Numbered from the stretch's first letter, positions 22,831-57,156 are shown. The stretch is DNA of 64,000 nucleotides from Candidatus Woesearchaeota archaeon (GCA_019322485.1 JAHWIK010000015.1:23216-87215); one strand, 5' to 3'. Program-made: numbers and translations. Notes: generated from the sequence alone by a model not told the origin.

Positions 22831-22869
22831 TTTTACTATACCTTGTCCTTTTGTAATTTAAAGTTTTCC

Positions 22870-24838: not shown

Positions 24839-26016
24839 TTTTTCTTCCTCTTTTTAGGCTTTAGTTTCTTTATCATTATTATCAATGCTGCAGCTATAAT
24901 AGCTAAGGCAACTGCCACATACAACAATGGAGATACCTTTCTTTCTGCTTCGTGCAGCTCTATTGTAAACTCCCTTTCAAAGGTTTTATCTTTATAGTAA
25001 GCCTTTGCCTTTAGTTCATAAGATCCAAGCTCCAGCTCATGCGCTTCCCAATGAAGCCTTACAGAGCTGTTCCTGTTTGGTTCGATATCAATCCTGTTTG
25101 CTTCCATAGCTGCAATTACTGTGCCATTCCTGATAATATCTGCAGTCAGGTTAACATCCTCAAGCTCTTTATTCCAGTTTGACCCTAAGAACATATTTAT
25201 CCTGTTGATTTTATCAACAACAGCAGTTCTTGTTCCTAAGAAAATCAGCACCCCTTCTTCACCAATCCTAAAACTTCCAGTTTCTTCTACTGCTTTTCCG
25301 GAAAACTTAATGATTGATTCTGCATCATACTCACCAGGCTTGAACAGGAACTTCTTTATGGTTAATTGGTTTTCATGACTTTTTCCAGGCTCAATAGTAA
25401 ATGTTGCTTTTGGCAGGGATAGTATCTTCTTCTCTGTATTTCCCAGAATCTTATAACCAAGCACTACATCATGGAATCCATTTACAAGTGCAGCTTTGTA
25501 CAGGCTTGCAACTTTCTCTTTATTCTCATATATGTTAAGGTCATTCTCTATTCCTCCAATTGTTATTGCGCCTTTGTTTTCCATTACTGTTGTAAATTTC
25601 ATAAGATATTGGCTGTCATCAATAACCAAAAGCTCTGTTTTAAGGTATTCCTCAGGATACGGAACAAATAAATTAACCGTATGATGTACTGATGGCTTTG
25701 TTGTTACTGTTCCTGAACCTGCTGGTTCTTCATATACAACTATCTTAGCCTGATGCTCGCCAGGCCCGAAAGGCCCTGATAGGTTAAAGCTGAATTCTTT
25801 TGGGCCTATTACAACCCCTTCACGCGCAATCTCCACGTCAAGCTCACCTTCAACACCAATTGTAATCCTTGTTGGAAGGTTTGATGAAGGTATAACTGTA
25901 AAAACACCTGAATGCTCTTTATTCCCAAAGAAATCTGTCTTTGCGGGCATTGCCCCTAAAGCAAACACAGCGTCTATTGAAAGCACCAATATAATAAATA
26001 AAATCCATTTTTTCAT
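24835..26016 (-). CDS. surface protein with a signal peptide and a C-terminal TM anchor plus Lys-rich tail
   Basis: N-terminal signal peptide. C-terminal 'LLYVAVALAIIAAALIIMIKKLKPKKRKKK'. 4-nt overlap with the giant gene. Confidence 0.5.
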   Translation of the reverse strand: MKKWILFIILVLSIDAVFALGAMPAKTDFFGNKEHSGVFTVIPSSNLPTRITIGVEGELDVEIAREGVVIGPKEFSFNLSGPFGPGEHQAKIVVYEEPAGSGTVTTKPSVHHTVNLFVPYPEEYLKTELLVIDDSQYLMKFTTVMENKGAITIGGIENDLNIYENKEKVASLYKAALVNGFHDVVLGYKILGNTEKKILSLPKATFTIEPGKSHENQLTIKKFLFKPGEYDAESIIKFSGKAVEETGSFRIGEEGVLIFLGTRTAVVDKINRINMFLGSNWNKELEDVNLTADIIRNGTVIAAMEANRIDIEPNRNSSVRLHWEAHELELGSYELKAKAYYKDKTFEREFTIELHEAERKVSPLLYVAVALAIIAAALIIMIKKLKPKKRKKK

Positions 26017-32000: not shown

Positions 32001-32063
32001 TAAGAGGATAATACAAAGTACTAATTTAATAATTTCAGATATCTTTTTTGTTTTATCTTTCAT
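26013..32063 (-). CDS. giant (2016 aa) cell-surface adhesin/S-layer-like protein with at least a dozen MopE-like Cys/Asp repeats and dense N-glycosylation sequons
   Basis: N-terminal TM/signal. Repeats of 'C(T/S)DG(F/Y/V)DND(L/Q)D...DC' (e.g. CTDGFDNDDDGDTDC, CSDGFDNDQDGELDC, CTDSYDNDFDNSVDCEDSDC). Asn/Thr/Ser/Tyr-rich with many N-x-S/T sites. Confidence 0.7.
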   Translation of the reverse strand: MKDKTKKISEIIKLVLCIILLLVSSLNFFIIPDGKELSSITEITGGASSSGTVGFFLLRVADTSNNYRRRVFYEDGSVINLTVIGEGIIENLKANFSCMDSNYADGAETVTNTAGNNYSISYTISQSNTVTNVNNSEDSTCPVGEECHRTCTIPVTSGRRLNGTVQLAFYEGKAALNYAWYVGYVTRAANCAAGVDNSNYFLENNTCSSVFYNPADSSYYYGAKDVDFSIKKKNTPDVVETHCANNADDDGDGKIDCEDSDCASIVYGEYYIVGGSNTNKQGTPAWTCNKTAAGWRDDPPYDPGDLDGSLQCIDGGTCDASCAPNLCTGTASNTAVTYTYKIQPEALFSMRLYQTSQITGYTAYFKVWQFNTSLWQENPGDFWILNYSATTGLSGKTTSANSIIAQSGPNPPSDPTPYTQSTLDNVLKAMMNTTNNFYGMYGLVLNRIFNGSAYDFKFNINISDDGVRDEHDISCADSYDNDLDYTTDCIDIDCDAYIGSTSANPDGTYPLCAYQNESKYAATNNSCTDGFDNDDDGDTDCHYNAGTWDTDCNNTYILNSSWLSYNVGGINGTCELGVETICNDLFDNDRDRAFDCNTTAFFTGGVIQYLSNPTNPRSTYSGGGTYPHGEYDCFNDSNCPINESGITCIDGKDNDLDFYSGLPGAGADCRMVEYDIDCNSSVLPAGTCQLIFETSCSDGFDNDQDGELDCNTTSTGASTTNPNYQYGAGGSNIAHGEYDCQSTCNVTNYWENDGANCSDNKDNDLDYYTITGWTGTQYSATNNQYGGGMDCRYNYDGNHYPDADCDGVDMGPGKCELGHEINCTDGYDNDLDNAYNPGGNRTSASGGYDCDDYDCANDSACPTTETASLCTDGVDNDLDRYVYNITDYLLDSNRVENLSGGIDCIYYAYGLTPNQFWPYAIAYDSYRYDQDCNDTAIGPSGQNCELIIERNCTDVFDNDQDYYISQMQNPGWTNASYQYHFGANTYLQDGDCNDYSCYNNSACPGRENYTCSPTGCNSTQNWCLDSIDNDLDNYLSDGINLSTAAGAGIDCAWNNYDSDCNNTYINDSGNIGLCTIRWEYNCSDGVDNDQDLGTYYVGESGSAHAGANTGEDCDDYNCYAVQESGLYVCTDDGSGLSIVEQTCNDTLDNDLDAYTWNGTEYETNDASGTDCGDPDCNGLLGPGDILCALFEEMYFDPFDDTLCGDYNSSGTTAYSMDNDGDNLANCYDTGCYHQGLCRVCPPEENVTLDSCMDGLNNEYEYQDEYISKTNYDPNEINASLNDGVYDCRDSDCDGIVGVWSTSQGICNSASAGTGYRTTESACTDSYDNDFDNSVDCEDSDCSSGASCLAPYTNSLAACTLKCSDAAAVSYIGGEPPDYSVNTNWGGGTPDLTYTEYHWRGKNLTFTFTDSATNVNGKTIQIYLGSASATYVPLDYEMNASNSGIYGTDSGNFNVQYSAQSGYHYQAVLIEYSGAYPNQILNLTFWITVPDNDTIVQNSSFSYYVSTSIGGVEQNADVTQYILETEPPQAPVFVKTTPADDDYTTSRLRMIKTDNTVTRLSASDTVYVRVNATDSGTWNSGVELCQFNDGTGWVNETSAYDCRYALTLSDGLNTIYARAVDGVGNIGPNTSLTIDVRTLPKQTTGFFCIDTNCSTSYPTKDYYVPTETLNVAVNFTSTYGFTANASGCVVYAEKNSPGSRISLGSVPLASTGMCNGTVSLSGLSEGYYTVEVELRDDNDTRTVSGELPWSNGNSKENIWVCDYTQTYNGYTCKDACEREEANRPSKVILKSPESGNTTTELRPTFTWYNATYNGSTTAKYEIEIDDSPIFTSLDYSRGNLSEGSNNETSHTLISDLELDKTYFWRVRAYHSIISGEWSDVWNFTLSSYIAINLTRDVVDFGVVIPGFSESTEDDSPLPLLLENVGNLIVNISINATDLFETVPNPNESYQFAIGVNESGSFTSATTTLTPMPSNSTPAIYNLNWEDASDTAEIDLNATVPLLEPSGQKNSTILVRTT

Positions 32064-33925: not shown

Positions 33926-33996
33926 GTTTTTCTTTTTATCCCGAAATTAAAACAACCTTTATAAACAATAATTCTTAACTTTTTCTGGGGGAAATA

Positions 33997-35889
33997 ATGG
34001 TTAAAGAGGAGTTAGATAGAAGTCACTTTCTTGATTTAGTCAGTAGTCCGAAGGATTTGAGGCTGTTGAATAAGCAGCAGTTAGATATGCTTGCTGAGGA
34101 ATTAAGAAGGCTAATAATTGAAACTGTAAGCAAGACAGGCGGCCACTTAGCGTCCAGCCTTGGTGTTATTGAATTAACTATTGCTTTGCATTATGTTTTT
34201 GACTCACCAAATGACAAGATAGTATGGGATGTTGGACATCAGGCTTATGCACATAAGCTGTTAACAGGAAGAAAAAATAAGTTCCATACCTTAAGGCAGC
34301 ACAAGGGCATAGCTGGTTTTCCAAAATCAAAGGAGAGCCCTCACGATGCCTTTGATACTGGACACAGCTCAACAGCAATATCAGCAGCTTTAGGAATAGC
34401 AGCTGCTCGCGATTTAAAGCATGAAAAAAACAAGGTGATAGCTGTTATTGGAGACGGAGCTTTAACTGGCGGAATGTCTTTTGAAGCCTTAAATCATGCT
34501 GGCTCATTAAAGAAAGACCTCATAGTAATCCTTAATGATAATGAGATGTCAATAAGCAAGAATGTAGGTGCTTTATCCTCTTATCTTTCAAAGCTGGTAT
34601 CAAAGCCTGGTTATGTCGACAGAAGAAAGAAAGTAGAAAGGATTTTAAGGGGGATACCTGGCCTGAGAAGGCAGGCTGCTAAGGTTTTTGGAATCGAGGA
34701 TACAATAAGGGCTTTAGCAGCTACAACTCCTGGCCTGATATTCAGGGAGCTTGGTTTTAGGTATTTTGGACCTGTTGATGGCCATAATATCGAGCAGATG
34801 ATAAAAACATTAGAGAACATAGAACAGCTTAAAGGTCCTATATTGCTTCATGTCATAACAAAAAAAGGGAAAGGCTATAGCTATGCAGAAGCTGACAGGA
34901 CAAGGTTTCATGGCATTGCGCCATTCAACATAGAGAATGGTGAAAAGAAGCACAAGAGCAGCGTTACATACACAACAGCATTCTCAAGATGTTTGACAAA
35001 GCTTGCAAAGCAGGACAAAAGGGTAGTTGCAATAACAGCAGCAATGAAGCCTGGAACAGGATTAGACCAGTTTGCAGGAATGTTTCCAGACAGGTTATTT
35101 GACGTCGGCATAGCAGAGCAGCATGCAGTTACATTTGCAGCTGGCTTGGCTAAGAACGGCTATAAGCCGGTATGCGCGATTTATTCTACTTTCCTGCAAA
35201 GGGCTTATGACCAGATTGTGCACGATGTTTGTTTGCAGAACCTGCCTGTTGTCTTTGCAATTGATAGAGCTGGCTTGGTCGGAGAGGACGGACCAACACA
35301 TCATGGAAGTTTTGATTTATCTTATCTGAGGCATATACCAAACATGACTGTAATGGCTCCAAAGGACGAGAATGAACTGGGGCATATGCTAAAAACAGCT
35401 TTAGAGATTGACGGGCCGGTTGCAGTAAGATACCCAAGAGGTACGGGCTTGGGGGTTGCAATACAGAACCCATACCACCCAATAGAATTAGGAAAAGCAG
35501 AAGTAATGCAGAAAGGAAAAGATTTGGCAATATTAGCAGTTGGTTCTTGCGTTGATATGGCGAATAAGGCTGCTGAGAAACTGGGGAAGAATAAAATAAA
35601 TGCAACCGTTGTTAATGTAAGGTTTGTAAAGCCTCTGGACGAGAAACTAATACTGAACCTAGCAAAGAAACACAGGAAACTGATTACTATAGAGGAGAAT
35701 GCATTAGATGGCGGTTTTGGTTCTGGTGTGCTGGAATTGTTGGAGCAGTATAACACCAAGGCAACGGTAAAAAGAATTGGAATACCTGATAAATTTGTAG
35801 AGCACGGTTCAATGTCAATCTTAAGAGAAAAAATTGGATTAACTGAGGATAATATAGTGAAGGAAGCGAAGTCGTTGATGGCAAAATGA
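33997..35889 (+). CDS. dxs: 1-deoxy-D-xylulose-5-phosphate synthase
   Basis: 'GGHLASSLGVIELTIALHYVFDSPNDKIVWDVGHQAYAHKLLTGR' (TPP-binding) and full-length similarity to Dxs. Confidence 0.9.
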   Translation: MVKEELDRSHFLDLVSSPKDLRLLNKQQLDMLAEELRRLIIETVSKTGGHLASSLGVIELTIALHYVFDSPNDKIVWDVGHQAYAHKLLTGRKNKFHTLRQHKGIAGFPKSKESPHDAFDTGHSSTAISAALGIAAARDLKHEKNKVIAVIGDGALTGGMSFEALNHAGSLKKDLIVILNDNEMSISKNVGALSSYLSKLVSKPGYVDRRKKVERILRGIPGLRRQAAKVFGIEDTIRALAATTPGLIFRELGFRYFGPVDGHNIEQMIKTLENIEQLKGPILLHVITKKGKGYSYAEADRTRFHGIAPFNIENGEKKHKSSVTYTTAFSRCLTKLAKQDKRVVAITAAMKPGTGLDQFAGMFPDRLFDVGIAEQHAVTFAAGLAKNGYKPVCAIYSTFLQRAYDQIVHDVCLQNLPVVFAIDRAGLVGEDGPTHHGSFDLSYLRHIPNMTVMAPKDENELGHMLKTALEIDGPVAVRYPRGTGLGVAIQNPYHPIELGKAEVMQKGKDLAILAVGSCVDMANKAAEKLGKNKINATVVNVRFVKPLDEKLILNLAKKHRKLITIEENALDGGFGSGVLELLEQYNTKATVKRIGIPDKFVEHGSMSILREKIGLTEDNIVKEAKSLMAK

Positions 35890-36923
35890 GAAGCAAAACA
35901 AAAGAAATCAGGATTGGAAAACTGAAGATTGGCGGAGATAATCCTATTGCAATACAGTCAATGACTAATACTGATACAAAAGACGAGGAAGCAACAATAA
36001 AACAGATTCATGAGCTAGAGGAGAATGGCTGCGAGATAGTTAGGGTTTCTGTTCCTGACAAGGAATCGTTGCTTTCATTAAGAGCAATAAAAGAAAACAT
36101 AAGCATTCCATTGGTTGCTGATATTCATTTTGACCATAAATTAGCTGTAGAAGCTGCAAGGATTGCAGACAAGATAAGGATTAACCCAGGAAATATTGGG
36201 AAAGAGAACCTGAAAGAGGTTGTTGATGCTGTTATGGATTCAAATATTCCGATGAGGGTGGGGATTAACCTAGGTTCTTTGGAAAAAGACATTGAGAAGA
36301 AGTTTGGCCTTACTGCATTAGGTATGGTTGAGAGCGCAATGAGGTCTGTGAAAGAGATAGAAAGGCTTGGCTTCTACAATATGGTTATTTCATTAAAGGC
36401 TTCTGATGTGTTAAAGACAATAGAAGCTTACAGATTGTTTTCACAGAGGTCACAATACCCTTTACACGTCGGTATAACCGAGTCTGGGAGCAGTTTTACA
36501 GGAACTGTTAATTCATCAGTTGGAATTGGAGCTTTATTATTGCAGGGAATTGGAGATACAATCCGCGTTTCATTATCAGCTGAGCCTGTTGAAGAGGTTA
36601 AAGTTGGCTGGCAGATTCTGAAAGCACTTAGGCTTAGGAAGAGGGGGATTGACATAACAAGCTGCCCAACGTGCGCAAGAAAAGGCATAGATGTTATCAA
36701 TATTGTCAAGGAGCTTGAGCAAAGAACCTCAAAAATGAACAAGCCTTTGCATATTGCAGTTATGGGCTGCGGTGTTAATGGTCCAGGAGAAGCTAAAGAA
36801 GCTGATATTGGTGTTGTCGGCGGAAAAGGAAATGTTTTGCTTTACAAGAATGGAATGATGGTCGGCAATATTGAGGGAGATGTTCTTGAAAGGTTGATGA
36901 AGGAGATAGAGAATTCAAAATGA
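35886..36923 (+). CDS. ispG: 4-hydroxy-3-methylbut-2-enyl diphosphate synthase (IspG/GcpE)
   Basis: 'IRIGKLKIGGDNPIAIQSMTNTDTKD' at the N-terminus and the C-terminal Cys cluster 'CPTCARK...GCGVNG'. ATGA overlap with dxs. Confidence 0.85.
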   Translation: MRSKTKEIRIGKLKIGGDNPIAIQSMTNTDTKDEEATIKQIHELEENGCEIVRVSVPDKESLLSLRAIKENISIPLVADIHFDHKLAVEAARIADKIRINPGNIGKENLKEVVDAVMDSNIPMRVGINLGSLEKDIEKKFGLTALGMVESAMRSVKEIERLGFYNMVISLKASDVLKTIEAYRLFSQRSQYPLHVGITESGSSFTGTVNSSVGIGALLLQGIGDTIRVSLSAEPVEEVKVGWQILKALRLRKRGIDITSCPTCARKGIDVINIVKELEQRTSKMNKPLHIAVMGCGVNGPGEAKEADIGVVGGKGNVLLYKNGMMVGNIEGDVLERLMKEIENSK

Positions 36924-38305
36924 GCTGGAAATTAATCACATTAAAACAGTATCCGATGTTCTCGAGATGGTGGATACATGAAGCGTTTCTCCACGATATG
37001 AAAGATACTTTAGGTATGAATTTTAAAATGTACAAATCGCTCTATAGCGGGACTTATGCTGATAGTGATGAGGTTGAAAAGTTAAGGTCTATGTTAATAT
37101 CTAAACTTGAAAAAGATATTGATTCAATTAGGAAATTATGTGAGAATTGGAAACATGATTGTGATGAGCTTATTAGATTTACAAAAGAATTAGAAAAATC
37201 GGACTTCTCAAAAAACTCTGATGAGGAATTAGTTAATTTATCAGAGAATTGCATTAAAAAATTAAGAAGAAGCGCTTCATATATTTATCTGTCAGTTGTT
37301 TTGGATGAATATTTTCAGAATTGGCTGAATAAAATACTTGAAGCTAAGGTTCAGGACCAGAATGAGAGGACAAAATACTTCCAAATTCTTACATCTCCAA
37401 CAAAAAATACTAAATTAATTGACGCTAAGAAGGTATTAATTGAGATTTCTAAAGTTGTTAAAGAGAAAGGTCTTGAGGGAGCAGAGGACTTAATCAAAGA
37501 TTATGTATCTAAATTTAAATGGCTTGGATATGATACTGGAATTGGAAGTGATTTAACTATAGAACAAACAAAGGATAAGATTTCTAATATTCTTGAGCAA
37601 AAACAGCACGACTCTGATGTTAAAAATAGGGATGAGGTCTTGTCTGAGTTGGATCTCAATGAAAAAGATAAAGAATTACTTGACTTGATGGACGAACTTA
37701 TTTTCCTAAGGACTTATAGGGCTGAAAGCAATATGGTTGCAGGAGCTGATATAAGGCCTATTCTTGAAGAACTTGCAAAAAGAGCCAATACAAATTATGA
37801 TAATCTAGTTCAATTAACCATTGATGAAATAAAAGACTCAATAAAGTCAAAAAAAGTAGACTTGAAGAAGATTGAGGAGAGAAAGAATAAGTATGGCTTG
37901 TTAATGGTCGATGGAAAGAATACAATCTACAGTGGAGATGAAGTGGATAAAGTAGAGGAAAAGGTTGAAGTTCCTGAAGGATTGACAGAGTTAAAAGGAT
38001 TAGTAGCACACCATGGAAATAAGAGGGGCCATGTTAAGATTGTTTTGAGGCATAAAGACTTTGATAAGATTGAATTTGGAGATATTTTGGTAACAAAGAT
38101 GACTAATCCTGATTTTATAGTTGTTTTAGAACAGTGTTCTGGAATAATTACAGACATTGGAGGGATAACCTCTCATGCAGCGATTGTTGCACGAGAACTA
38201 AACAAGCCATGCATTACAGGAACTCAATATGCTACAAAAGTCTTGAAAGATGGTGACTTAGTTGAGCTTGATACAGATAAAGGCATTGTAAAGATAATAA
38301 AATGA
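36920..38305 (+). CDS. protein of unknown function (461 aa): a novel ~340-aa N-terminal region plus a C-terminal PEP-utilising-enzyme mobile (phosphohistidine swivel) domain. It is embedded in the MEP operon at the position where dxr would be expected.
   Basis: C-terminal 'GLVAHHGNKRGHVKIV...GGITSHAAIVARELNKPCITG' is the PEP-utilisers domain with the catalytic His. ATGA overlaps with both ispG and ispDF. Confidence 0.6.
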   Translation: MSWKLITLKQYPMFSRWWIHEAFLHDMKDTLGMNFKMYKSLYSGTYADSDEVEKLRSMLISKLEKDIDSIRKLCENWKHDCDELIRFTKELEKSDFSKNSDEELVNLSENCIKKLRRSASYIYLSVVLDEYFQNWLNKILEAKVQDQNERTKYFQILTSPTKNTKLIDAKKVLIEISKVVKEKGLEGAEDLIKDYVSKFKWLGYDTGIGSDLTIEQTKDKISNILEQKQHDSDVKNRDEVLSELDLNEKDKELLDLMDELIFLRTYRAESNMVAGADIRPILEELAKRANTNYDNLVQLTIDEIKDSIKSKKVDLKKIEERKNKYGLLMVDGKNTIYSGDEVDKVEEKVEVPEGLTELKGLVAHHGNKRGHVKIVLRHKDFDKIEFGDILVTKMTNPDFIVVLEQCSGIITDIGGITSHAAIVARELNKPCITGTQYATKVLKDGDLVELDTDKGIVKIIK

Positions 38306-39453
38306 ACATAGCAATCATAACAGCAGCTGGAAAAGGAACAAGGATGAATGAAAAAGTCAATAAAATATTGTTATCTTTAGTCGATAAATCAATAATTGAA
38401 GAAACAATCGAGGTTTTTGAGGCGTGTAAAGATATTGATGAGATAATTATTGTTGGAAACAGCGATGATATTGAATCATTAAACAAAATCAATGAAAAAA
38501 ATAATTATAAAAAAATTAAAAAAATCATTGAAGGCGGAGAACAACGGCAGGATTCAGTGTTTAATGGAATAAAATCCATTGAAAATGCGAGTAATGATGA
38601 TATTTTATTGATTCATAATGGTGCAAACCCCCTTGTAGACGAGAAAACGATTCTTGAATGTATTAAAGAAGCAAAGGAGCATGGGGCAGCTGTTGCTGCA
38701 ATGCCTGCAAAAGATACAATAAAACAGGTTGAGAATGGTTTTGTTGCTAAAACATTGGATAGAAAGCAGCTCTGGCAGATGCAGACACCGCAAACAATCC
38801 AGTTTGGGCTTGCGAAAGAGGCTTTTGAAAAGGCATTTGCTGATAATTTCTATGGAACTGATGATGTTGGGCTTGTAGAAAGGCTTGGAAAAAAGGTTAA
38901 GATTGTTGAGTGCAATACTGAGAACGTAAAAATCACAACAAAGAATGATTTAGAACAAGCAAGACTCTTGCTTAATGCTTCTGTTGTTGGAATCGGACAG
39001 GATTCCCACAAATTTACCGACGAGAAAAAGGATTTAGTTTTGGGTGGTGTAGTAATTCCAAATGAGCAGGGCTTAGAAGCAAACTCTGATGGTGATGTCA
39101 TCCTGCATGCCTTGTTTAATGCTTTAAGCCAGGCAGCTGGAGAAAAATCATTGGGAAATTATGCAGATTCAATGTGTGAGAATGGAATAAAAGACAGCAG
39201 AGAGTATCTAAGAGTGATTTTAGACATAATCAACAAGAAAAATTACAAGATAAATAATGTTGGCTTTATGATAGAAGCAAAAAAGCCAAGGCTAGGGGCT
39301 AATGAAGACAGAATAAAAGAGAATATTGCAAATTTATTGGGAATAACTAAAGATAAAGTTGGAATAACAGCAACCTCAGGAGAGGAATTAACTCCATTTG
39401 GCCAGGGCAAGGCAATACAGGTATTTTCAGTTGCAAGCTTAACAAGAAAATAA
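38302..39453 (+). CDS. ispDF: bifunctional MEP cytidylyltransferase / MEcPP synthase (IspDF)
   Basis: N-terminal 'IAIITAAGKGTRM' (IspD). C-terminal 'IGQDSHKF...GLEANSDGDVILHAL' (IspF). Confidence 0.85.
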   Translation: MNIAIITAAGKGTRMNEKVNKILLSLVDKSIIEETIEVFEACKDIDEIIIVGNSDDIESLNKINEKNNYKKIKKIIEGGEQRQDSVFNGIKSIENASNDDILLIHNGANPLVDEKTILECIKEAKEHGAAVAAMPAKDTIKQVENGFVAKTLDRKQLWQMQTPQTIQFGLAKEAFEKAFADNFYGTDDVGLVERLGKKVKIVECNTENVKITTKNDLEQARLLLNASVVGIGQDSHKFTDEKKDLVLGGVVIPNEQGLEANSDGDVILHALFNALSQAAGEKSLGNYADSMCENGIKDSREYLRVILDIINKKNYKINNVGFMIEAKKPRLGANEDRIKENIANLLGITKDKVGITATSGEELTPFGQGKAIQVFSVASLTRK

Positions 39454-39474
39454 TGAAAATCAAAGATTTTCAGT

Positions 39475-40344
39475 ATGTCAAAAACCAAGGTTTTTAACAT
39501 GATCCAGCTAAAAGCACACGCAAAGATAAACCTGACCTTAGATGTACTTGCAAGGCTGGATGACGGCTATCATCGGATAGAATCTATAAAACAGCAGGTT
39601 GGTTTGCACGATAAAATCTCATTAGGGCCATTGGATGATATAAAGGTAATCTGCAGCCATCCTAACATAACCACAAAAGAAAATCTTGTCTTTAAAACAG
39701 CATTGTTGCTAAAAAATGAATTTAATGTAGCAGAGGGAGCGAAGATAACAATAGAAAAAAATATTCCATTAGCTGCTGGCTTGGCTGGAGGCTCATCAGA
39801 CGCAGCAGCAACCCTGGTAGGATTAAACAAGCTTTGGAAACTTGAGCTTGATGAGCAGGAACTGACAAAATTAGCTGCAGAGATTGGAATGGATGTTCCT
39901 TTTTCTGTTGTTGGCGGTTCTTGTTTTGCAGAGGGCAAAGGCACTAAACTAAGCAGGATAGAGCTGCCTGAGATGCATGTGCTGTTAATCAACCCTGGTT
40001 TTGAAGTCTCTACAAGAACAGCTTACCAAAGCCTTGACTTGTCAAGAACAGGAAAGGCAATGGCAACAAAGAAACTATTGGAAGTAAGGAACATGGGTGT
40101 GAGAGAAATATCAAAGGTCATGCATAATGACTTTGAAGCTGTGGTGCTGGGGAAGCATTCTATTCTGAAAGAGATAAAGGGCAAATTAATGGAGAATAAT
40201 GCCTTGAATGCAATAGTATCTGGCTCAGGGCCAACTGTTTTTGGCTTGTTTGAGGATGAATCAACTATAAGCAAGGCTTACGAATCTCTTAAAGAAACTT
40301 ATCCATTTGTATTCATGACAAAAACAGTAGCGAGGAAAGAATGA
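39475..40344 (+). CDS. ispE: 4-diphosphocytidyl-2-C-methyl-D-erythritol kinase
   Basis: 'KINLTLDVLARLDDGYHRIESI' and GHMP-kinase motif 'PLAAGLAGGSSDAAA'. Confidence 0.8.
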   Translation: MSKTKVFNMIQLKAHAKINLTLDVLARLDDGYHRIESIKQQVGLHDKISLGPLDDIKVICSHPNITTKENLVFKTALLLKNEFNVAEGAKITIEKNIPLAAGLAGGSSDAAATLVGLNKLWKLELDEQELTKLAAEIGMDVPFSVVGGSCFAEGKGTKLSRIELPEMHVLLINPGFEVSTRTAYQSLDLSRTGKAMATKKLLEVRNMGVREISKVMHNDFEAVVLGKHSILKEIKGKLMENNALNAIVSGSGPTVFGLFEDESTISKAYESLKETYPFVFMTKTVARKE

Positions 40345-41153
40345 GAATTAAAAAAGCAAAGCACTCTGGATTTTGTTTTGGTGTTAAGAGGGCAGTAGAG
40401 TCAGCGCTGGGCACAGAGGGGGAAGTAAAGACATTAGGCCCATTAATACATAATCCTCAGTTTATAGCAGAGCTTGAGAAAAAGGGAATAAAATCTGTTG
40501 ATTCTGTCGATGAGGTTGAAAAAGGCTCTTTGATAATAAGGGCGCATGGTGTCCCGGATTCTGTTATAGAAAAGGCCAGGGGAAAAGGGCTTAATGTAAC
40601 TGATTTAACATGTCCTTTTGTCAGGAAGGTGCATGATTATGCTAAGGAATTCTACAAACAAGGCTATAGTGTGGTTGTGGTTGGAGAGAAAAACCATCCT
40701 GAGGTTGTAGGAATAATTGGCAACATTGATGGTATTGTTGTGGGCAATGCAGATGATGCAAGGAAACTTGGCAGGTTCGAAAAGATTGGAGTGGTTGCAC
40801 AAACAACACAATCACTTGAGAACTTTAACAATGTTGTTGATGAGCTGAAAAAGCATACAGATGAGTTAAAGGTACATAATACCATATGCTCTGAAACAGA
40901 TTCAAGGCAGAAACACGCTATTGAGCTGGCAAAAGAGGTTGACTTGATGATAGTTATTGGGGGGAGAAACTCTGGAAATACCAGAAGGCTTGCCCAGCTT
41001 TGCTCTAAATTAACTGAAACAAAGCATATTGAGTCTGAGGATGAGTTAAAGGAGGGGTGGTTTGCAGGCAAGGGTTGTGTTGGGATAACAGCTGGCGCTT
41101 CAACACCGGACAGCACAATCAAGAAGATTGAGGATAGAATCAGGGAGATATGA
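40341..41153 (+). CDS. ispH: 4-hydroxy-3-methylbut-2-enyl diphosphate reductase (IspH/LytB), short form
   Basis: 'HSGFCFGVKRAVESAL' N-terminal Cys motif, and further conserved Cys/His residues. ATGA overlap with ispE. Confidence 0.75.
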   Translation: MRIKKAKHSGFCFGVKRAVESALGTEGEVKTLGPLIHNPQFIAELEKKGIKSVDSVDEVEKGSLIIRAHGVPDSVIEKARGKGLNVTDLTCPFVRKVHDYAKEFYKQGYSVVVVGEKNHPEVVGIIGNIDGIVVGNADDARKLGRFEKIGVVAQTTQSLENFNNVVDELKKHTDELKVHNTICSETDSRQKHAIELAKEVDLMIVIGGRNSGNTRRLAQLCSKLTETKHIESEDELKEGWFAGKGCVGITAGASTPDSTIKKIEDRIREI

Positions 41154-42246
41154 GATTATGGAATTCATACAAGCAGTAGGGCAATACAAGGGAATAGTCA
41201 ATAAGACTTTAAGCACGTTCTTTGATAATCATATCAATAAAACACAGGATGGCTTTCTAAAATTTAATTATTCTACACTTAGGGATTATGTTTTGCGGGA
41301 CGGCAAGAGATTAAGGCCAATCACACTGATAATGGCTTACAAGTCAATAACTGATAATGATGAGCAGAAGATTTACATGCCTTCTTTGAGTATGGAACTG
41401 TTCCATGCTTCCTCATTAATACATGATGATATAATGGATGAGGATGATTTAAGGAGGGGAAAAGAGAGCATGCATACCCTGTTTAACCAGTGGTTTGTTG
41501 ATAATCACGGCCAGGCAGGCTATAATGGGCCTATATTTAACCAGTTATCTACTAAGTTTGGGGTTTCTATGGCAATACTGCAGGGAAATATACTGATTGC
41601 TTTAGGTGAGTCCTGCTTGTCAGGCTCCTCATTTGCCCCGGAACAGATAAAGGCTGCTTTAATGGTGTGCAATAACACAAACAAGGTAGTTAATGAAGGC
41701 CAGATACAGGACATTGTTCTGGAGACAAAGAGGGAGTTTACTGAAAATGATTATTTGAGTATGATTGCTAAGAAAACAGGCAAATTATTCAGCACATCTC
41801 TTGAGATAGGTGCAGTATTTGCAGGTGCAACAGATTCTCAGAGAAAAGCGCTTGATAATTATGCATTATCTGCAGCAACAACATTCCAGATACAGGACGA
41901 TATAATGGACATAAGCCCTGATATGAAAAAGGGGCATGAGGTTGGCTCTGATATAAAGCAGGGAAAAAGAACCTTGCTTGTTATGAAGGCCCTGGAAAAA
42001 GGGGATGAAGGCCAAAAAAAGGTTTTGTTTGATGCTCTTGGCAATGAGAAAGCAACACCAGAAGAAATAGAGATTGCTATCGATGTTATGCACGCTACAG
42101 GGGCAGTTGATTATGCAAAGAATCTTGCAGCTGATATGATTAAGAAAGGAAAGGATGCGCTTAAGGAAGCAGACCCTGCTTTATCTTCTGATGGATTGAA
42201 GTTCTTTAATGATTTAGCAGATTATATGGTAAATAGAAATGTCTAG
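41128..42246 (+). CDS. polyprenyl diphosphate synthase (GGPP synthase-like)
   Basis: First and second Asp-rich motifs 'LIHDDIMDEDD' and 'FQIQDDIMD'. Confidence 0.8.
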   Translation: MRIESGRYEIMEFIQAVGQYKGIVNKTLSTFFDNHINKTQDGFLKFNYSTLRDYVLRDGKRLRPITLIMAYKSITDNDEQKIYMPSLSMELFHASSLIHDDIMDEDDLRRGKESMHTLFNQWFVDNHGQAGYNGPIFNQLSTKFGVSMAILQGNILIALGESCLSGSSFAPEQIKAALMVCNNTNKVVNEGQIQDIVLETKREFTENDYLSMIAKKTGKLFSTSLEIGAVFAGATDSQRKALDNYALSAATTFQIQDDIMDISPDMKKGHEVGSDIKQGKRTLLVMKALEKGDEGQKKVLFDALGNEKATPEEIEIAIDVMHATGAVDYAKNLAADMIKKGKDALKEADPALSSDGLKFFNDLADYMVNRNV

Positions 42247-42764
42247 GATTTGATTAGTTTCTCTAGCTTGTCCCAATTGTCTGCTGAGTTTTCTTCGCAG
42301 TTATAGGTTGCCAGCTTGACTCCTTGAGGTATGACCTTGACTTTGTATGCATGAGCTCCTTTAGAGTTTACTTTCTCATTTCTTATGCTTTTTTTAATCT
42401 CTTCAGAGCAGGCAAAGCCAATAACTCCTCTTGGCTTGTGTTTCTTTATAATCCTCTTCATGAAGTTAAGAGAAGGAACAACAAAGAATTTAGAGCCAAG
42501 GCCTTCGCTTAATTTTCTTATGTCCCCTATCTTACACAGTCCGCAGCTGATGCACTTAACCCCTTCTAATGAATCAAGCCTTGCAGGACATTTAGGATTT
42601 CTTAAGCAGTGAGGCAGAAAAACGGCTCTTTCATTCTTAGGTATTTTCCTGAAGTCTTCCTCATAATATTTGTTGATAGCATCTAGGATATCATGTTTTA
42701 TTCCTAATAGCTTTCTAAGTGGATATAACGATACTGTCAGGAAGAATTTCACTTTTTTATTCAT
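42243..42764 (-). CDS. Cys-rich archaeal protein (DUF116-like)
   Basis: Conserved Cys pattern 'HCLRNPKCP...CISCGLCKIGD...GFACSEE'. 173 aa. Confidence 0.4.
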   Translation of the reverse strand: MNKKVKFFLTVSLYPLRKLLGIKHDILDAINKYYEEDFRKIPKNERAVFLPHCLRNPKCPARLDSLEGVKCISCGLCKIGDIRKLSEGLGSKFFVVPSLNFMKRIIKKHKPRGVIGFACSEEIKKSIRNEKVNSKGAHAYKVKVIPQGVKLATYNCEENSADNWDKLEKLIKS

Positions 42765-43244: not shown

Positions 43245-43382
43245 AGTATCACCTTTAGTCTATTTTATTTGGAAACAAATGAGAATTCATTTTGTCTCCA
43301 GTATAAGCGAGCCATTATTGACCTGCTTATCTCTCGATATAATATAGGAATGATAATTGGTTTAAAAACCTTACTATATGAA

Positions 43383-43554
43383 GAAATAATCAATAGCCCC
43401 GGGCAGATTCGAACTGCCGTCCCCGGCTGTTTTCGATGGAAATCGCAAAACTGTTGGAAATCTTTGATTTCCACCACCAAAAGCAGGGATGATTTGTCGG
43501 AAATCGGAGATTTCTGAGCAAATTGAAAATCTCCGATTTTCAATTGACCACTAC
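43383..43554 (-). tRNA. intron-containing tRNA candidate (172 nt, about 97 nt of intronic sequence; anticodon not resolved)
   Basis: Perfect 7-bp acceptor stem (AGCCCCG/CGGGGCT), 5' 'TAGTGTAGTGGTCA' D-region and canonical T-arm 'GGCAGTTCGAATCTGCC'. The interior contains stable hairpins (e.g. ATTGAAAATC/GATTTTCAAT). Confidence 0.45.
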
Positions 43555-43644
43555 ACTACGGGGCTCTAAAGCTAAGAAACTCCTCGCGAATATATAAAAG
43601 TTGTGATAAACTAAATCAAAAATTATTTATACCAGTGTTTTAGA

Positions 43645-50619: not shown

Positions 50620-52584
50620 ATGGTACCAGATAATGGAGAAAAGGATACTGGTAACTCTACAGAAGGACCTCCAGAGGACACCCAAGGAGAACCTACAGAG
50701 AGCCCTACAGAAGCCTCTACAGAAGAACCTGAAGAAGAAAAGCTTCTAGTAATAAGACCTTTTGATGAGGTTAAGGCGGATTTGATAAGGCTATCTGAAT
50801 CAACGGATGATGCTGAGAAGGAAGTGATTCGTGGTAGGTTACATGAGGACTTCGATTCTGTCTATCCTATGTTAAAGGGACTGCCTCGCGGGGAAGATGC
50901 TACACTTCTTTCCTACCCTGGGCAAGAGAATATGGTTTCTGCTGTGGATATGGTTGCTAAAAAACCCAAAAAGAAATATGTAGATATGGCAAGCCAACAA
51001 CTAGGCAGGCTTTATGAATCGTATCAGGCAGAGGTTCTTCAAGCGAAATGGAATACTGAAGCTGAGAAACTGCAGTCAGCAGTAGCAAACCCACAAGAGA
51101 CAATAACCCATCTAAGAACTTCCCTTTCTTCTCATCTGTCAGGGCTTCATAGAGATGTTCGTGCTTGTACCATCGACCTATTAATAAAATATAGGGACTT
51201 TAAAATAGGGGAAGATCCTGCTCGGGATGAGGAGAGGATCACTGATAGTTTGCTTGACCCTGAAGATGGGTATTACATCTTAGGTTATACCATAAGGATT
51301 TTTGAGGATGTAAGCGCTAGATATAATGATGTCCGGCTTAAGCAACTTGCACTGAATCCAAGTATTGCTGATACAGCCCGTACCTTATTGCAGATAGTTA
51401 ATGAGGCTCGAAAGATAACTGGGGAGGCTGGCCTTAGTTTAGAAATCTCGTGCAGGGAAGAACTTGAAGCTATGCTGGAGAAAGGAGAGCCTTCTCCTGC
51501 TGATTCAGAGAGGATACTTGCCACTAATAACGAAATACTAATACAACTTGGTAATTTCTTGCTTGATGCTGTTCAAGGCACAAGTTTAGAAGGTAAGTTG
51601 GATTATAAGAAACAAGACTTGCCTGAGAGAGAGCAGGCAGATAAACCAAAAGCGCCACGCAGGGAATATAAAAGGTCTGCTCCGAGCAGGGTATTTTCAA
51701 ATGAATCTCACTCTGAACTTGCAGGTCTTATTTGCACGCTTTCTGCTTCAGAGAATAACGAGGAGTGGGCAGAGATGAGGGGGTGTATAAAAGGAATGCT
51801 GAGTGAGGCGTATAGAGCAATAGGGATAACAGAGGCACATGTGAACGAAATACGTTTGACCTATCCTAAAGAGGAGGAGTTATGTTCTTTGGCTGATAAA
51901 ATTCCTGAACAAAAGGAGACAACTTATGAATTAACTGCTAAGGTGAGAGCTCTTTATGAAGCTGGCACTGCTTACACTGCCCTGGCTTTTTGGAAGAGAT
52001 GGGTGGCTTCATTAAAGGAAGAGTTGGCAACTGAATCTATGGTATATGATACCTGGAAAGGTGCTTTATCAACTTATATGAAGCATTGCGCACCTGAATC
52101 TAGGGACGAAGTTAATAAACGTTTGATAGCGCGTAGAAGGTCAGTCATGGGAGAAGAAGAAAGCCAGAAGTATAGTGATGAGGAAATACTTTTAGCAGTA
52201 AATTCCGAGCTGGATGACAGAGGTAGGCCTGATTTAATGTTAGATCATTCTGCAATATTTTTTGAGGTTGCTATAGAAGATTACGCTCGTTTAGCAAATG
52301 ATGTATGTAAGAAATGGAGGGGCACAACTGAGTTTATTGGTGCTATGCTTAGGTTTTGTGGCGGTGTTTCTCCTTTGGCAGGCTCGTTAGGTATAACTGC
52401 AGATGATTCAGACAGCACCAAACTTAAGGAGTCGTATGAAAAAGGGCTGGGCTATGTTATGGAAGATGAGCATGACCCAAAAGATGTTGCTAATACTTTA
52501 GGTACTTCAAAGAATGTATTGAAGCAGTACGGGGAAATTTATATTAAAATTCTTGAGAAGGTTGCTGAAGAGAAACAGAAATAA
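50620..52584 (+). CDS. large acidic cytoplasmic protein of unknown function (654 aa), compositionally atypical, ending 1 nt before a tRNA gene
   Basis: No TM helix. N-terminal Pro/Glu/Thr acidic stretch. Higher GC than neighbours. Confidence 0.5.
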   Translation: MVPDNGEKDTGNSTEGPPEDTQGEPTESPTEASTEEPEEEKLLVIRPFDEVKADLIRLSESTDDAEKEVIRGRLHEDFDSVYPMLKGLPRGEDATLLSYPGQENMVSAVDMVAKKPKKKYVDMASQQLGRLYESYQAEVLQAKWNTEAEKLQSAVANPQETITHLRTSLSSHLSGLHRDVRACTIDLLIKYRDFKIGEDPARDEERITDSLLDPEDGYYILGYTIRIFEDVSARYNDVRLKQLALNPSIADTARTLLQIVNEARKITGEAGLSLEISCREELEAMLEKGEPSPADSERILATNNEILIQLGNFLLDAVQGTSLEGKLDYKKQDLPEREQADKPKAPRREYKRSAPSRVFSNESHSELAGLICTLSASENNEEWAEMRGCIKGMLSEAYRAIGITEAHVNEIRLTYPKEEELCSLADKIPEQKETTYELTAKVRALYEAGTAYTALAFWKRWVASLKEELATESMVYDTWKGALSTYMKHCAPESRDEVNKRLIARRRSVMGEEESQKYSDEEILLAVNSELDDRGRPDLMLDHSAIFFEVAIEDYARLANDVCKKWRGTTEFIGAMLRFCGGVSPLAGSLGITADDSDSTKLKESYEKGLGYVMEDEHDPKDVANTLGTSKNVLKQYGEIYIKILEKVAEEKQK

Positions 52585-52700
52585 TGCCCCTGCCGAGAAT
52601 CGAACTCGGGTCTTCAGGTTTTTGCAAAATTGCCGCAACCTAATATTCTTTTTGGCTATGCCGAACCTTGTTCAGCAAGTATCCACTATACTACAGGGGC
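52585..52700 (-). tRNA. intron-containing tRNA candidate (116 nt; anticodon not resolved)
   Basis: 7-bp acceptor (GCCCCTG/CAGGGGC), discriminator A, 5' 'TAGTATAGTGGATAC' D-region and T-arm 'CCGAGTTCGATTCTCGG'. About 40 extra nucleotides internally, including an AGGTT/AACCT helix. Confidence 0.45.
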
Positions 52701-52712
52701 AATAATTTGTTT

Positions 52713-57130: not shown

Positions 57131-57156
57131 TAAAAATTAAAAAAATAAAAAAGAAA

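What the first reader, a model, noticed from the sequence alone, without database searches (positions are those of the whole stretch)
33997..42246. Complete bacterial-type MEP isoprenoid operon, lacking dxr, in an apparently archaeal genome
Seven genes are tightly coupled by ATGA-type overlaps at 35886, 36920, 38302, 40341 and 41128. They are dxs, ispG, an unknown PEP-utiliser-domain gene, ispDF, ispE, ispH and a GGPP synthase. Every MEP step is present except DXP reductoisomerase (Dxr/IspC). The surrounding genes are archaeal-type (S24e, S27ae, P0/P1, RpoE'/Spt4, class-I CCA, diphthine synthase, BHB-intron tRNAs). Archaea are known to make IPP by mevalonate routes, so a full MEP operon here implies either inter-domain transfer of a whole pathway or an unusual lineage. 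In either case the dxr step is unaccounted for inside the operon.
Basis: partly seen in the sequence, partly recalled or inferred. Interest (0 to 1): 0.8.

Follow-up and report, generated by a model that had tools for sequence, protein, structure and literature searches.

The report
Published Woesearchaeota MEP operon; dxr elsewhere
This is a real bacterial-type isoprenoid (MEP) gene cluster in a DPANN archaeon, but it comes from a genome (Woesearchaeota MAG YT1_182) in which this pathway was published in 2021, and the "missing" dxr gene lies on another contig of the same genome.

Summary
Window 33997-42246 (+) encodes dxs, ispG, a 461-aa PEP-utiliser-domain protein, fused ispDF, ispE, ispH and a polyprenyl-diphosphate synthase. 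Four ATGA overlaps are real. The flanks are archaeal and the 64-kb window contains no dxr.

The window's IspG and IspDF are identical to YT1_182_00537 and _00539, and its Dxs matches the part of _00536 I could read. YT1_182 is a Woesearchaeota MAG whose MEP pathway, fused ispDF and bacterial origin were described by Huang et al. 2021 (PMC8421398); see also Castelle 2021 and Hoshino & Gaucher 2018.

That MAG has a canonical Dxr, YT1_182_00091 (= MBW2979868.1). It lies on a 187-kb contig next to bacterial-type gpsA and an archaeal-type ribosomal protein S2 gene. The pathway is therefore complete.

Synteny in independent assemblies argues against a chimera.

One point appears new. In more distant relatives the order is dxs-ispG-dxr-ispDF at the same chromosomal locus. 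In YT1_182 the ispG|ispDF slot instead holds the PEP-utiliser gene. That gene encodes the substrate-binding plus swivel-histidine half of a rifampin-phosphotransferase-like, two-component small-molecule dikinase. It cannot replace Dxr. No ATP-grasp partner was found in the window, and its substrate is unknown.

Interest is low.

The parts
33958..33965 (+). TTTATAAA, a candidate archaeal TATA box about 32 nt upstream of the dxs ATG. A GGGGG run follows just before the start codon (inference only).
   Evidence: Read directly from the sequence. No promoter tool for archaea was available.
33997..35889 (+). [quoted passage not shown]
   Evidence: TIGR00204 881.6 bits against a cut-off of 466. PF13292, PF02779 and PF02780 all hit. 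The 411 residues of the published YT1_182_00536 sequence visible in the supplement are identical.
35886..36923 (+). ispG (gcpE), HMBPP synthase (345 aa), = YT1_182_00537. ATGA overlap with dxs.
   Evidence: NF001540 461.8 bits against 345. PF04551 E 2.9e-141. Exact match to the published sequence. Overlap shown.
36920..38305 (+). HpeH/PpsA-type half of a rifampin-phosphotransferase-like small-molecule dikinase (461 aa): helical substrate-binding domain plus phospho-histidine swivel domain (TxxGGxxxH, H419). It has no ATP-grasp domain and no PEP-binding TIM barrel. = YT1_182_00538 / MBW2980312.1 (KY360_02750). It sits in the slot that holds dxr in relatives. ATGA overlaps on both sides.
   Evidence: Only PF00391 hits, at residues 386-455. 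A profile of the family aligns over positions 90-479 to residues 440-866 of PDB entries 5hv2 and 5fbs; entries in this group are titled rifampin phosphotransferase from Listeria. The AF2 model has pLDDT 92.8. Foldseek top hits are 5fbu, 5fbt and 5hv1, E 3e-15, TMq 0.63. T411, G414, G415 and H419 are invariant in 60 homologues.
38302..39453 (+). Fused ispD-ispF (383 aa), = YT1_182_00539
   Evidence: TIGR00453 216.5 against 181 and TIGR00151 151.8 against 116. PF01128 and PF02542 hit. Exact match to the published sequence.
39475..40344 (+). ispE, CDP-ME kinase (289 aa; the published gene call appears to start at an internal Met), = YT1_182_00540
   Evidence: TIGR00154 241.1 against 139. The published sequence fragment is shown.
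40341..41153 (+). ispH (lytB), HMBPP reductase (270 aa), = YT1_182_00541. ATGA overlap with ispE.
   Evidence: TIGR00216 280.6 against 188. PF02401 E 1.5e-91.
41128..42246 (+). trans-Polyprenyl diphosphate synthase, probably short-chain (FPP/GGPP type; chain length not established). The start is either TTG 41128 or ATG 41158.
   Evidence: PF00348 187 bits. IdsA (207 bits) and GGPP_syn (197 bits) are the best NCBIfam matches but both are below cut-off. Only 42% identical to the Yap2000.bin4.8 counterpart.

Best explanation
The window is part of Candidatus Woesearchaeota MAG YT1_182 (NCBI locus-tag prefix KY360).

It carries the bacterial-type MEP pathway that a clade of Woesearchaeota acquired from bacteria. 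The genes are now embedded in an archaeal chromosomal neighbourhood near the P0/L1 ribosomal genes. They are probably transcribed as one unit from an archaeal-type promoter, and most genes are translationally coupled.

Six of the seven MEP activities are encoded here: Dxs, IspG, IspD, IspF, IspE and IspH. A polyprenyl-diphosphate synthase follows and would use the IPP/DMAPP produced.

The seventh enzyme is a canonical class-I Dxr. It is encoded on another contig of the same MAG, between a bacterial-type gpsA/DUF212 pair and an archaeal-type rps2. The pathway is therefore complete and conventional (shown at the level of gene content; activity is inferred).

In more distant relatives dxr lies between ispG and ispDF. 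In the YT1_182 lineage dxr has been relocated. The slot now holds a gene for the substrate-binding plus swivel-histidine component of a two-component, rifampin-phosphotransferase-like small-molecule dikinase. By analogy with HpeHI, PpsAB and RPH, its H419 would receive a phosphoryl group from ATP through a separate ATP-grasp subunit and pass it to a hydroxyl group of an unknown small molecule (inferred). It is not a reductoisomerase. It is most likely a lineage-specific insertion rather than a pathway enzyme.
For: Source of the window:
- The window's IspG and IspDF are identical to YT1_182_00537 and _00539. Its Dxs matches the 411 residues of _00536 visible in the supplement of PMC8421398.
- The PEP-utiliser protein equals MBW2980312.1 (KY360_02750), 'Candidatus Woesearchaeota archaeon', on a 92.6-kb contig.

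Dxr in the same MAG:
- YT1_182_00091 has PF02670, PF08436 and PF13288, and TIGR00243 at E 3.7e-149 in the paper's table.
- It is identical to P0123 = MBW2979868.1, on a 187-kb contig.
- Its neighbours are gpsA (NF000942, 320 bits) and archaeal/eukaryotic-type uS2 (TIGR01012, 245 bits against a cut-off of 211.5).
- The same PlsC-like / gpsA / DUF212 / dxr / rps2 arrangement occurs in a relative whose Dxr is 81% identical.

Vertical coherence:
- Against the orthologous locus L095, identities are P0 66%, L1 55%, Dxs 59%, IspG 66%, Dxr 67% and IspDF 63%.
- The order dxs-ispG-dxr-ispDF is seen in L014, L015 and L095.

Not a chimera:
- L007 (Yap2000.bin4.8) shows ispDF-ispE-ispH-polyprenyl synthase-DUF116-S15-dph5-ftsZ-ligase in the same order, at 76-95% identity for most genes.

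Prior publication.

The dikinase half:
- The closest homologues sit beside ATP-grasp (PF01326) genes, with overlapping start and stop codons.
- A two-component precedent, HpeHI/CreHI/PpsAB, is described in PMC12167813. The RPH mechanism is described in PMC4844700.
Against: - I could not read the full NCBI assembly. That the 187-kb dxr contig and the 92.6-kb operon contig belong to one organism rests on the authors' binning, contiguous accession numbers and congruent divergence. It does not rest on coverage or a closed genome.
- No ATP-grasp partner for the dikinase half was found in the window or identified in the MAG, so its activity in this organism is unproven.
- The ATGA coupling of this gene to ispG and ispDF on both sides could mean a functional link to the pathway that I cannot exclude.
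- No expression or enzymatic data exist. Huang et al. also note that GGGP and DGGGP synthases are missing, so the use made of the isoprenoids is unclear.
Confidence: 0.9

Rival explanations
1. The cluster is an assembly or binning artefact: a bacterial fragment joined to an archaeal contig.
For: The MEP genes are bacterial in type. The source is a metagenome-assembled genome.
Against: The same junctions recur in independent assemblies from other samples:
- Polyprenyl synthase-DUF116-archaeal S15-dph5-FtsZ-ligase in Yap2000.bin4.8.
- P0-L1 ... transglutaminase-like gene-dxs in L095.
- Transglutaminase-like gene-dxs in L016, which also carries a family B DNA polymerase gene.

The GC and GC3 of the operon genes (0.33-0.41 and 0.29-0.38) fall within the range of the flanking genes.
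Confidence: 0.02
2. The organism lacks Dxr. It makes MEP by another route: a DRL/DXR-II enzyme, or the PEP-utiliser-domain protein that sits in the dxr slot.
For: There is no dxr in 64 kb. An unknown gene occupies exactly the position that dxr has in relatives.
Against: - A canonical Dxr is present in the same MAG.
- The slot gene has no Rossmann or oxidoreductase domain. With a high-confidence model, it folds like the RIF-binding plus swivel domains of a phosphotransferase.
- No oxidoreductase candidate is present in the window.
Confidence: 0.02
3. The dikinase half is a working accessory of the MEP operon, for example:
- a salvage kinase that phosphorylates a scavenged alcohol (1-deoxy-D-xylulose, 2-C-methyl-D-erythritol or an isoprenol); or
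- a resistance kinase that inactivates an inhibitor of the pathway.
For: - ATGA overlaps with both neighbours imply co-translation with ispG and ispDF.
- The catalytic His motif is intact.
- RPH-family enzymes phosphorylate small-molecule hydroxyls, including antibiotics.
- An HpeH-type subunit alone can catalyse phosphotransfer between a phosphorylated donor and an acceptor.
- DPANN archaea are thought to scavenge metabolites.
Against: - None of the homologue neighbourhoods examined contains MEP genes. The neighbours are ATP-grasp genes, paralogues, HD-domain genes or unrelated genes.
- No homologue above 67% identity exists in a database of 5.8 billion proteins, so the association is seen in one genome only.
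- The ispG-ispDF interval also holds unrelated inserts in other relatives, and L095 has EamA between dxs and ispG (Fic and YgjP-like genes in L016, small ORFs).
- No ATP-grasp partner was found nearby.
Confidence: 0.08

Closest known systems
MEP pathway of Woesearchaeota subgroup J (Huang et al. 2021, Nat Commun, PMC8421398), and the 52-genome Woesearchaeota clade of Castelle et al. 2021 (PMC8204110)
   Same: It is the same object. The window's IspG and IspDF are identical to YT1_182_00537 and _00539, and its Dxs matches the readable part of _00536. The fused ispDF, the co-located genes, the bacterial affinities and the unlinked dxr (YT1_182_00091) all appear in that paper's text or tables.
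   Different: Nothing differs for the pathway itself. In the parts of the papers and supplements I could search, I found no mention of gene _00538 or of the relocation of dxr out of the ispG|ispDF slot.
Canonical bacterial MEP/DOXP pathway (Dxs, Dxr, IspD, IspE, IspF, IspG, IspH)
   Same: All seven enzyme families are present in the MAG and score above equivalog cut-offs. IspD and IspF are fused, which matches a bifunctional model in NCBIfam (NF006899).
   Different: The host is an archaeon. The genes lie among archaeal ribosomal and information-processing genes, apparently behind an archaeal-type TATA box. dxr is unlinked, beside gpsA and archaeal rps2.
Two-component small-molecule dikinases HpeHI, CreHI and PpsAB (phenylphosphate synthase), and single-chain rifampin phosphotransferase RPH (PMC12167813, PMC4844700; PDB 5fbu, 5hv1)
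   Same: ORF 36920-38305 has the RIF-binding-like helical domain followed by the swivel domain with T/SxxGGxxxH. It lacks the ATP-grasp domain, as HpeH does. Its closest homologues are followed by a separate ATP-grasp gene.
   Different: Sequence identity to RPH is about 15-17%. The substrate is unknown. No partner gene is adjacent in this genome. The known members act on phenolics or rifamycins in free-living bacteria, not in a DPANN archaeon's isoprenoid operon.
PEP synthase and pyruvate phosphate dikinase
   Same: They share the phospho-histidine swivel domain (PF00391).
   Different: There is no PEP/pyruvate-binding TIM barrel (PF02896) and no ATP-grasp (PF01326) in this ORF. All PEP-synthase NCBIfam scores are far below cut-off, e.g. 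108 against 598.

Membership tests
Bacterial-type MEP pathway gene set | Dxs, IspD, IspE, IspF, IspG and IspH orthologues present | tested here: met
   All score above NCBIfam equivalog cut-offs, with full-length Pfam matches.
Bacterial-type MEP pathway gene set | Dxr (IspC) present in the cluster or window | tested here: not met
   tblastn with E. coli Dxr against the window gives a best E-value of 0.74. No Dxr domains appear in the scanned ORFs.
Bacterial-type MEP pathway gene set | Dxr present in the same genome | tested here: met
   YT1_182_00091 equals P0123 / MBW2979868.1 and has PF02670, PF08436 and PF13288. Its accession is 444 away from the operon protein MBW2980312.1, and its neighbour is an archaeal uS2 gene. 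The assignment to the same organism rests on MAG binning, not on a closed genome.
Woesearchaeota MAG YT1_182 (Huang et al. 2021) | Protein sequences identical to the published gene products | tested here: met
   String identity for IspG, IspDF and Dxr. For Dxs, the first 411 aa are identical (using sequences read).
Archaeal (DPANN) chromosomal context | Archaea-specific information-processing genes on the same contig, with synteny conserved in independent assemblies | tested here: met
   rpoE 226 bits, archaeal CCA-adding enzyme 310 bits, dph5 265 bits and archaeal S15 201 bits. S24e, S27ae, P0, P1 and L1 hit. Synteny is shown.
Two-component RPH-like small-molecule dikinase, H/A-type subunit (for ORF 36920-38305) | Swivel domain with a conserved T/SxxGGxxxH phospho-histidine motif | tested here: met
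   T411, G414, G415 and H419 are invariant in 60 homologues. PF00391 E 4.8e-26.
Two-component RPH-like small-molecule dikinase, H/A-type subunit (for ORF 36920-38305) | Substrate-binding domain homologous to the RIF-binding domain of RPH | tested here: met
   The profile aligns over positions 90-479 to residues 440-866 of 5hv2 and 5fbs, E about 2e-37. Foldseek gives 5fbu at E 3.1e-15 and TMq 0.63, on a model with pLDDT 92.8.
Two-component RPH-like small-molecule dikinase, H/A-type subunit (for ORF 36920-38305) | A separate ATP-grasp (PF01326) partner subunit | tested here: inconclusive
   Absent from the window. Present immediately downstream of the closest homologues P0003 and P0006. A database search with a partner sequence returned hits whose named members are Patescibacteria-like, and none was assignable to YT1_182. 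The rest of the MAG could not be read.
Two-component RPH-like small-molecule dikinase, H/A-type subunit (for ORF 36920-38305) | ATP-dependent phosphorylation of a small-molecule hydroxyl (ATP gives AMP + Pi + phospho-substrate) | not testable with these tools
   This needs biochemistry. The substrate is unknown.
PEP synthase / PPDK | ATP-grasp N-domain and PEP/pyruvate-binding TIM barrel in the same protein | tested here: not met
   Only PF00391 is found. PEP_synth TIGR01418 scores 101 bits against a cut-off of 740.
DXR-like (DRL / DXR-II) alternative reductoisomerase | A DRL-type oxidoreductase substituting for Dxr | not tested
   No DRL query sequence was used. No oxidoreductase-like ORF was seen in the window, and the question is moot once class-I Dxr is present.

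The most novel reading that the evidence does not exclude
The RPH-like dikinase half that has taken the dxr position, translationally coupled to ispG and ispDF, could be a true accessory of the archaeal MEP pathway. One possibility is a kinase that feeds scavenged 1-deoxy-xylulose, methylerythritol or isoprenols into the pathway of a host-dependent DPANN cell. Another is a kinase that inactivates a natural MEP-pathway inhibitor. Either would be a new physiological role for the two-component small-molecule dikinase family.
Probability: 0.07. Interest if true: 0.55.

Novelty: already known. Interest (0 to 1): 0.15.

Why it matters
A bacterial isoprenoid pathway in archaea bears on the 'lipid divide' and on how DPANN archaea build hybrid bacterial/archaeal metabolisms. 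That point has been in the literature since 2018-2021, and it was made with this same genome.

This re-examination adds three things:
- It removes a false lead. The pathway is not missing Dxr.
- It shows that the cluster has been rearranged within Woesearchaeota. dxr moved next to gpsA and PlsC-like genes, i.e. bacterial-type glycerolipid genes.
- It identifies the unannotated operon gene as half of an RPH-like dikinase.

These are useful annotation details, not a discovery.

Tried and rejected
- Exact look-ups of the window's own proteins in the contig index failed. I therefore could not extend beyond the window or read the rest of the 92.6-kb contig.
- The single genome-contig scan with IspDF returned only one relative, Yap2000.bin4.8. 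Its contig breaks inside ispDF, so the gene that follows ispG in that MAG is unknown.
- Castelle 2021's Supplementary Table 4 (genes neighbouring the MEP genes) is not held as text.
- The search for an ATP-grasp partner in YT1_182, using the partner of a close homologue, returned hits whose named members are Patescibacteria-like. That was a dead end. It suggests the family is shared between CPR bacteria and DPANN archaea.
- Default ARAGORN and two Rfam searches found no RNA genes. Only ARAGORN's intron mode recovered tRNA candidates.
- I considered and rejected three ideas: that the slot gene replaces Dxr (wrong fold and chemistry); that the contig is chimeric (conserved synteny); and that the gene is a PEP synthase or PPDK (both flanking domains are missing).

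Full report
**1. What is in the sequence**

The interval 33997-42246 carries seven same-strand ORFs. Pfam and NCBIfam identify them as follows:
- dxs: TIGR00204, 881.6 bits against a cut-off of 466.
- ispG: NF001540, 461.8 against 345.
- A 461-aa protein whose only Pfam domain is the PEP-utilizers mobile domain (PF00391, residues 386-455).
- A fused ispD-ispF: TIGR00453 216.5 against 181, and TIGR00151 151.8 against 116.
- ispE: TIGR00154, 241.1 against 139.
- ispH: TIGR00216, 280.6 against 188.
- A trans-polyprenyl-diphosphate synthase: PF00348, 187 bits. The IdsA and GGPP-synthase models are the best matches but fall below their cut-offs.

ATGA start/stop overlaps are present at 35886, 36920, 38302 and 40341. 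The junction at 41128 is TTGA, and an alternative ATG lies at 41158, 4 nt after the ispH stop. ispDF and ispE are 21 nt apart.

A TTTATAAA box lies about 32 nt upstream of the dxs ATG. I read it as an archaeal TATA box, but that is inference only.

**2. Context**

The flanks are archaeal. Archaeal rpoE, the archaeal CCA-adding enzyme, diphthine synthase and archaeal-type S15 all pass curated cut-offs. ATP-dependent DNA ligase, FtsZ and archaeal helicase domain 4 are.

The remaining large ORFs are surface proteins (PKD and Ig-like domains, cysteine-rich), a lipase-like protein, a PHP-domain protein and similar.

No Dxr, no comparable oxidoreductase and no mevalonate-pathway gene is present. tblastn with E. 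coli Dxr gives nothing better than E = 0.74.

**3. Where the window comes from**

The PEP-utiliser protein is 100% identical to NCBI MBW2980312.1, 'hypothetical protein KY360_02750 [Candidatus Woesearchaeota archaeon]', on a 92,607-bp contig.

The supplement of Huang et al. 2021 (Nat Commun 12:5281, PMC8421398) prints alignments that include MAG YT1_182. The window's IspG and IspDF are letter-for-letter identical to YT1_182_00537 and _00539. The window's Dxs matches the 411 residues of _00536 that I could read. The same table lists ispE as _00540 and ispH as _00541. Gene _00538, the PEP-utiliser gene, is not listed in their isoprenoid table.

**4. Prior knowledge**

- Huang et al. state that the bacterial MEP pathway occurs in Woesearchaeota subgroups F and J, including YT1_182. 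They also state that most subgroup-J members have a fused ispD/F. By their phylogenies the genes, dxr among them, are closest to various bacteria.
- Castelle et al. 2021 (PMC8204110) report the pathway, with co-located genes, in a monophyletic clade of 52 Woesearchaeota genomes. They cite Castelle & Banfield 2018 for the first report.
- Hoshino & Gaucher 2018 (PMC6107057) attribute the MEP enzymes of DPANN archaea to horizontal transfer from bacteria.

A bacterial MEP operon in an archaeal genome is thus established, and it was established with this genome.

**5. The 'missing' dxr**

Huang's table lists dxr for YT1_182 as gene _00091, carrying PF02670, PF13288 and PF08436 and scoring TIGR00243 E 3.7e-149. 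For the sister MAG Yap2000.bin4.8 it lists _00748. Both are far from the dxs-ispG genes, which are _00536/_00537 and _01252/_01253 respectively.

I searched the protein database with the Yap2000 Dxr. One of the hits, P0123, is identical to YT1_182_00091. It is NCBI MBW2979868.1, 'Candidatus Woesearchaeota archaeon', on a 187,486-bp contig. Its accession is 444 below that of the operon protein, and the gene numbers differ by 447. That is what one expects from a single MAG submission.

An independent assembly of the same gene (L009) shows its neighbours:
- a bacterial-type NAD(P)H glycerol-3-phosphate dehydrogenase (NF000942, 320 bits);
- a DUF212 gene;
- an archaeal/eukaryotic-type ribosomal protein S2 (TIGR01012, 245 bits against a cut-off of 211.5).

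A relative whose Dxr is 81% identical has the same arrangement, preceded by two PlsC-like acyltransferase genes.

The pathway is therefore complete in this MAG and uses the ordinary class-I enzyme. The remaining caveat is that 'same genome' rests on binning.

**6. Not a chimera**

- The contig of Yap2000.bin4.8 (L007) has ispDF-ispE-ispH-polyprenyl synthase-DUF116-S15-...-dph5-ftsZ-nitroreductase-ligase in the same order as the window. Most genes are 76-95% identical.
- L095, a 78-kb JGI contig, has P0-L1-...-transglutaminase-like gene-dxs-EamA-ispG-dxr-...-ispDF. Identities to the window are P0 66%, L1 55%, transglutaminase-like 56%, Dxs 59%, IspG 66% and IspDF 63%.
- L016 has a family B DNA polymerase gene and the transglutaminase-like gene upstream of dxs-ispG.
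- Operon GC and GC3 fall within the range of the neighbouring genes.

**7. Rearrangement of the cluster (not found in the papers I could search)**

In L014, L015 and L095, dxr lies directly between ispG and ispDF. In L014 the junctions overlap. In L016, dxr lies 4.5 kb downstream of ispG, after Fic and YgjP-like genes.

YT1_182 Dxr is 62-68% identical to these in-operon Dxr proteins. IspG (62-66%) and Dxs (59-69%) show the same level of divergence. This fits vertical descent followed by relocation rather than a second acquisition.

In YT1_182 the ispG|ispDF slot holds the PEP-utiliser gene instead.

**8. What the slot gene is**

- *Homology.* A profile of 60 homologues aligns over positions 90-479 to residues 440-866 of PDB entries 5hv2 and 5fbs, deposited as 'phosphoenolpyruvate synthase'. 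titles entries in this group rifampin phosphotransferase from Listeria. The aligned residues correspond to the RIF-binding and swivel domains. [quoted passage not shown]
- *Structure.* The AlphaFold model is confident: pLDDT 92.8, pTM 0.90. Its best Foldseek matches are 5fbu, 5fbt and 5hv1, with E about 3e-15 and TMq 0.63 over the whole query.
- *Catalytic motif.* T411, G414, G415 and H419 (TxxGGxxxH) are invariant.
- *What it lacks.* The protein has neither the ATP-grasp domain (PF01326) nor the PEP-binding TIM barrel (PF02896).
- *Known architecture.* This is the architecture of HpeH, CreH and PpsA, the substrate-binding plus swivel subunits of two-component small-molecule dikinases. Their ATP-grasp domain is a separate polypeptide (PMC12167813; RPH mechanism in PMC4844700).
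- *Neighbourhoods of homologues.* The closest homologues are followed by an overlapping PF01326 gene: P0003 at 67% identity and P0006 at 59%, which also has a paralogue upstream. Others are next to a paralogue and an HD-domain gene, or next to a divergently oriented PF01326 gene in a Saccharimonadales genome. None of the neighbourhoods examined contains MEP genes.
- *In this genome.* No PF01326 gene is in the window. A database search with a partner sequence did not reveal one from this MAG.
- *Distribution.* No homologue above 67% identity exists in the 5.8-billion-protein collection. The operon copy is so far unique to this lineage.
- *Composition.* Its GC content (0.33) is at the low end of the window range.

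**9. Mechanism**

*Shown at the level of gene content:* Dxs makes DXP. The unlinked Dxr makes MEP. IspD/F, IspE, IspG and IspH then give IPP/DMAPP, and the terminal polyprenyl synthase elongates them.

*Inferred:* co-transcription from an archaeal promoter and translational coupling.

The slot protein most likely accepts a phosphoryl group on H419 and transfers it to a small-molecule hydroxyl. It cannot perform the NADPH-dependent rearrangement and reduction that Dxr catalyses. I regard it as a lineage-specific insertion. The ispG-ispDF interval also holds unrelated inserts in other relatives, and L095 has EamA between dxs and ispG. A functional tie to the pathway (salvage or inhibitor resistance) is not excluded, and I put it at below 10%.

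**10. Verdict**

The phenomenon is already known from this exact genome, and the dxr gap is explained. Interest is low. The only new points are the relocation of dxr and the identity of the gene that replaced it in the operon.

Noticed in passing
window 43394-43565 (- strand); L007 4267-4466: An archaeal tRNA gene interrupted by inserts. The acceptor, D-arm and T-arm exons are identical between YT1_182 and Yap2000.bin4.8, but the inserted segments differ in number and length. YT1_182 has about 30 nt and about 50 nt extra. Default ARAGORN and Rfam miss it; ARAGORN -i calls it tRNA-Lys(ttt) with an 83-nt intron. A second candidate, tRNA-Pro(agg) with a 28-nt intron, is at c[52584..52701].
   Followed up: partly
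window 43245-43390 (- strand), between the tRNA and the S15 gene: About 90 nt of intergenic sequence (…CTATATCGAGAG…CTGGAGACAAA.TGAATTCTCATTTGTTTCCA…) is almost identical between YT1_182 and Yap2000.bin4.8. The protein genes around it are only 70-85% identical. It may be a conserved leader, promoter or small RNA upstream of rps15.
   Followed up: no
L009 171-3374; L094 7269-11755 (dxr locus of YT1_182 and a relative): dxr sits with bacterial-type glycerolipid genes: two PlsC-like acyltransferases, gpsA and DUF212. Upstream are thiolase, SDR, acyl-CoA dehydrogenase and ETF genes. The whole group is directly beside archaeal rps2. This suggests a block of bacterial-type lipid metabolism in these Woesearchaeota; Castelle 2021 mention gpsA near MEP genes.
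   Followed up: partly
window 41128-42764 compared with L007 2284-3770: The polyprenyl synthase and the convergent DUF116 gene are only about 42-43% identical between YT1_182 and Yap2000.bin4.8. Every flanking gene is 76-95% identical. This two-gene segment looks as if it was replaced or is evolving much faster.
   Followed up: no
L014 6247-7869: In a metagenomic relative, ispE and ispH are in one frame with no stop between them: a 540-aa ORF that may be an IspE-IspH fusion.
   Followed up: no
window 15432-17414 (- strand): Ribosomal stalk protein P0 is 660 aa, well above the 407 aa of the L095 homologue. It has a long Lys/Glu/Pro-rich repetitive C-terminal extension. L1 and S24e also carry KE-rich tails.
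   Followed up: no
window 26013-32063 (- strand) and 21586-24288, 54977-58272: A 2016-aa cysteine- and Asp/Asn-rich secreted protein, plus several Cys-rich, PKD-domain or Ig-like surface proteins and a lipase-like protein. This large predicted cell-surface repertoire might fit an episymbiotic lifestyle, but that is speculation.
   Followed up: no
L010 496-4306; Stand-alone ATP-grasp (PF01326, about 311 aa) proteins are very highly conserved (70-79% identity) and widespread. The named hits are Patescibacteria. In L010 one is clustered with two paralogous swivel-domain proteins. This may be a widespread, uncharacterised two- or three-component dikinase system in CPR bacteria and DPANN archaea.
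   Followed up: partly
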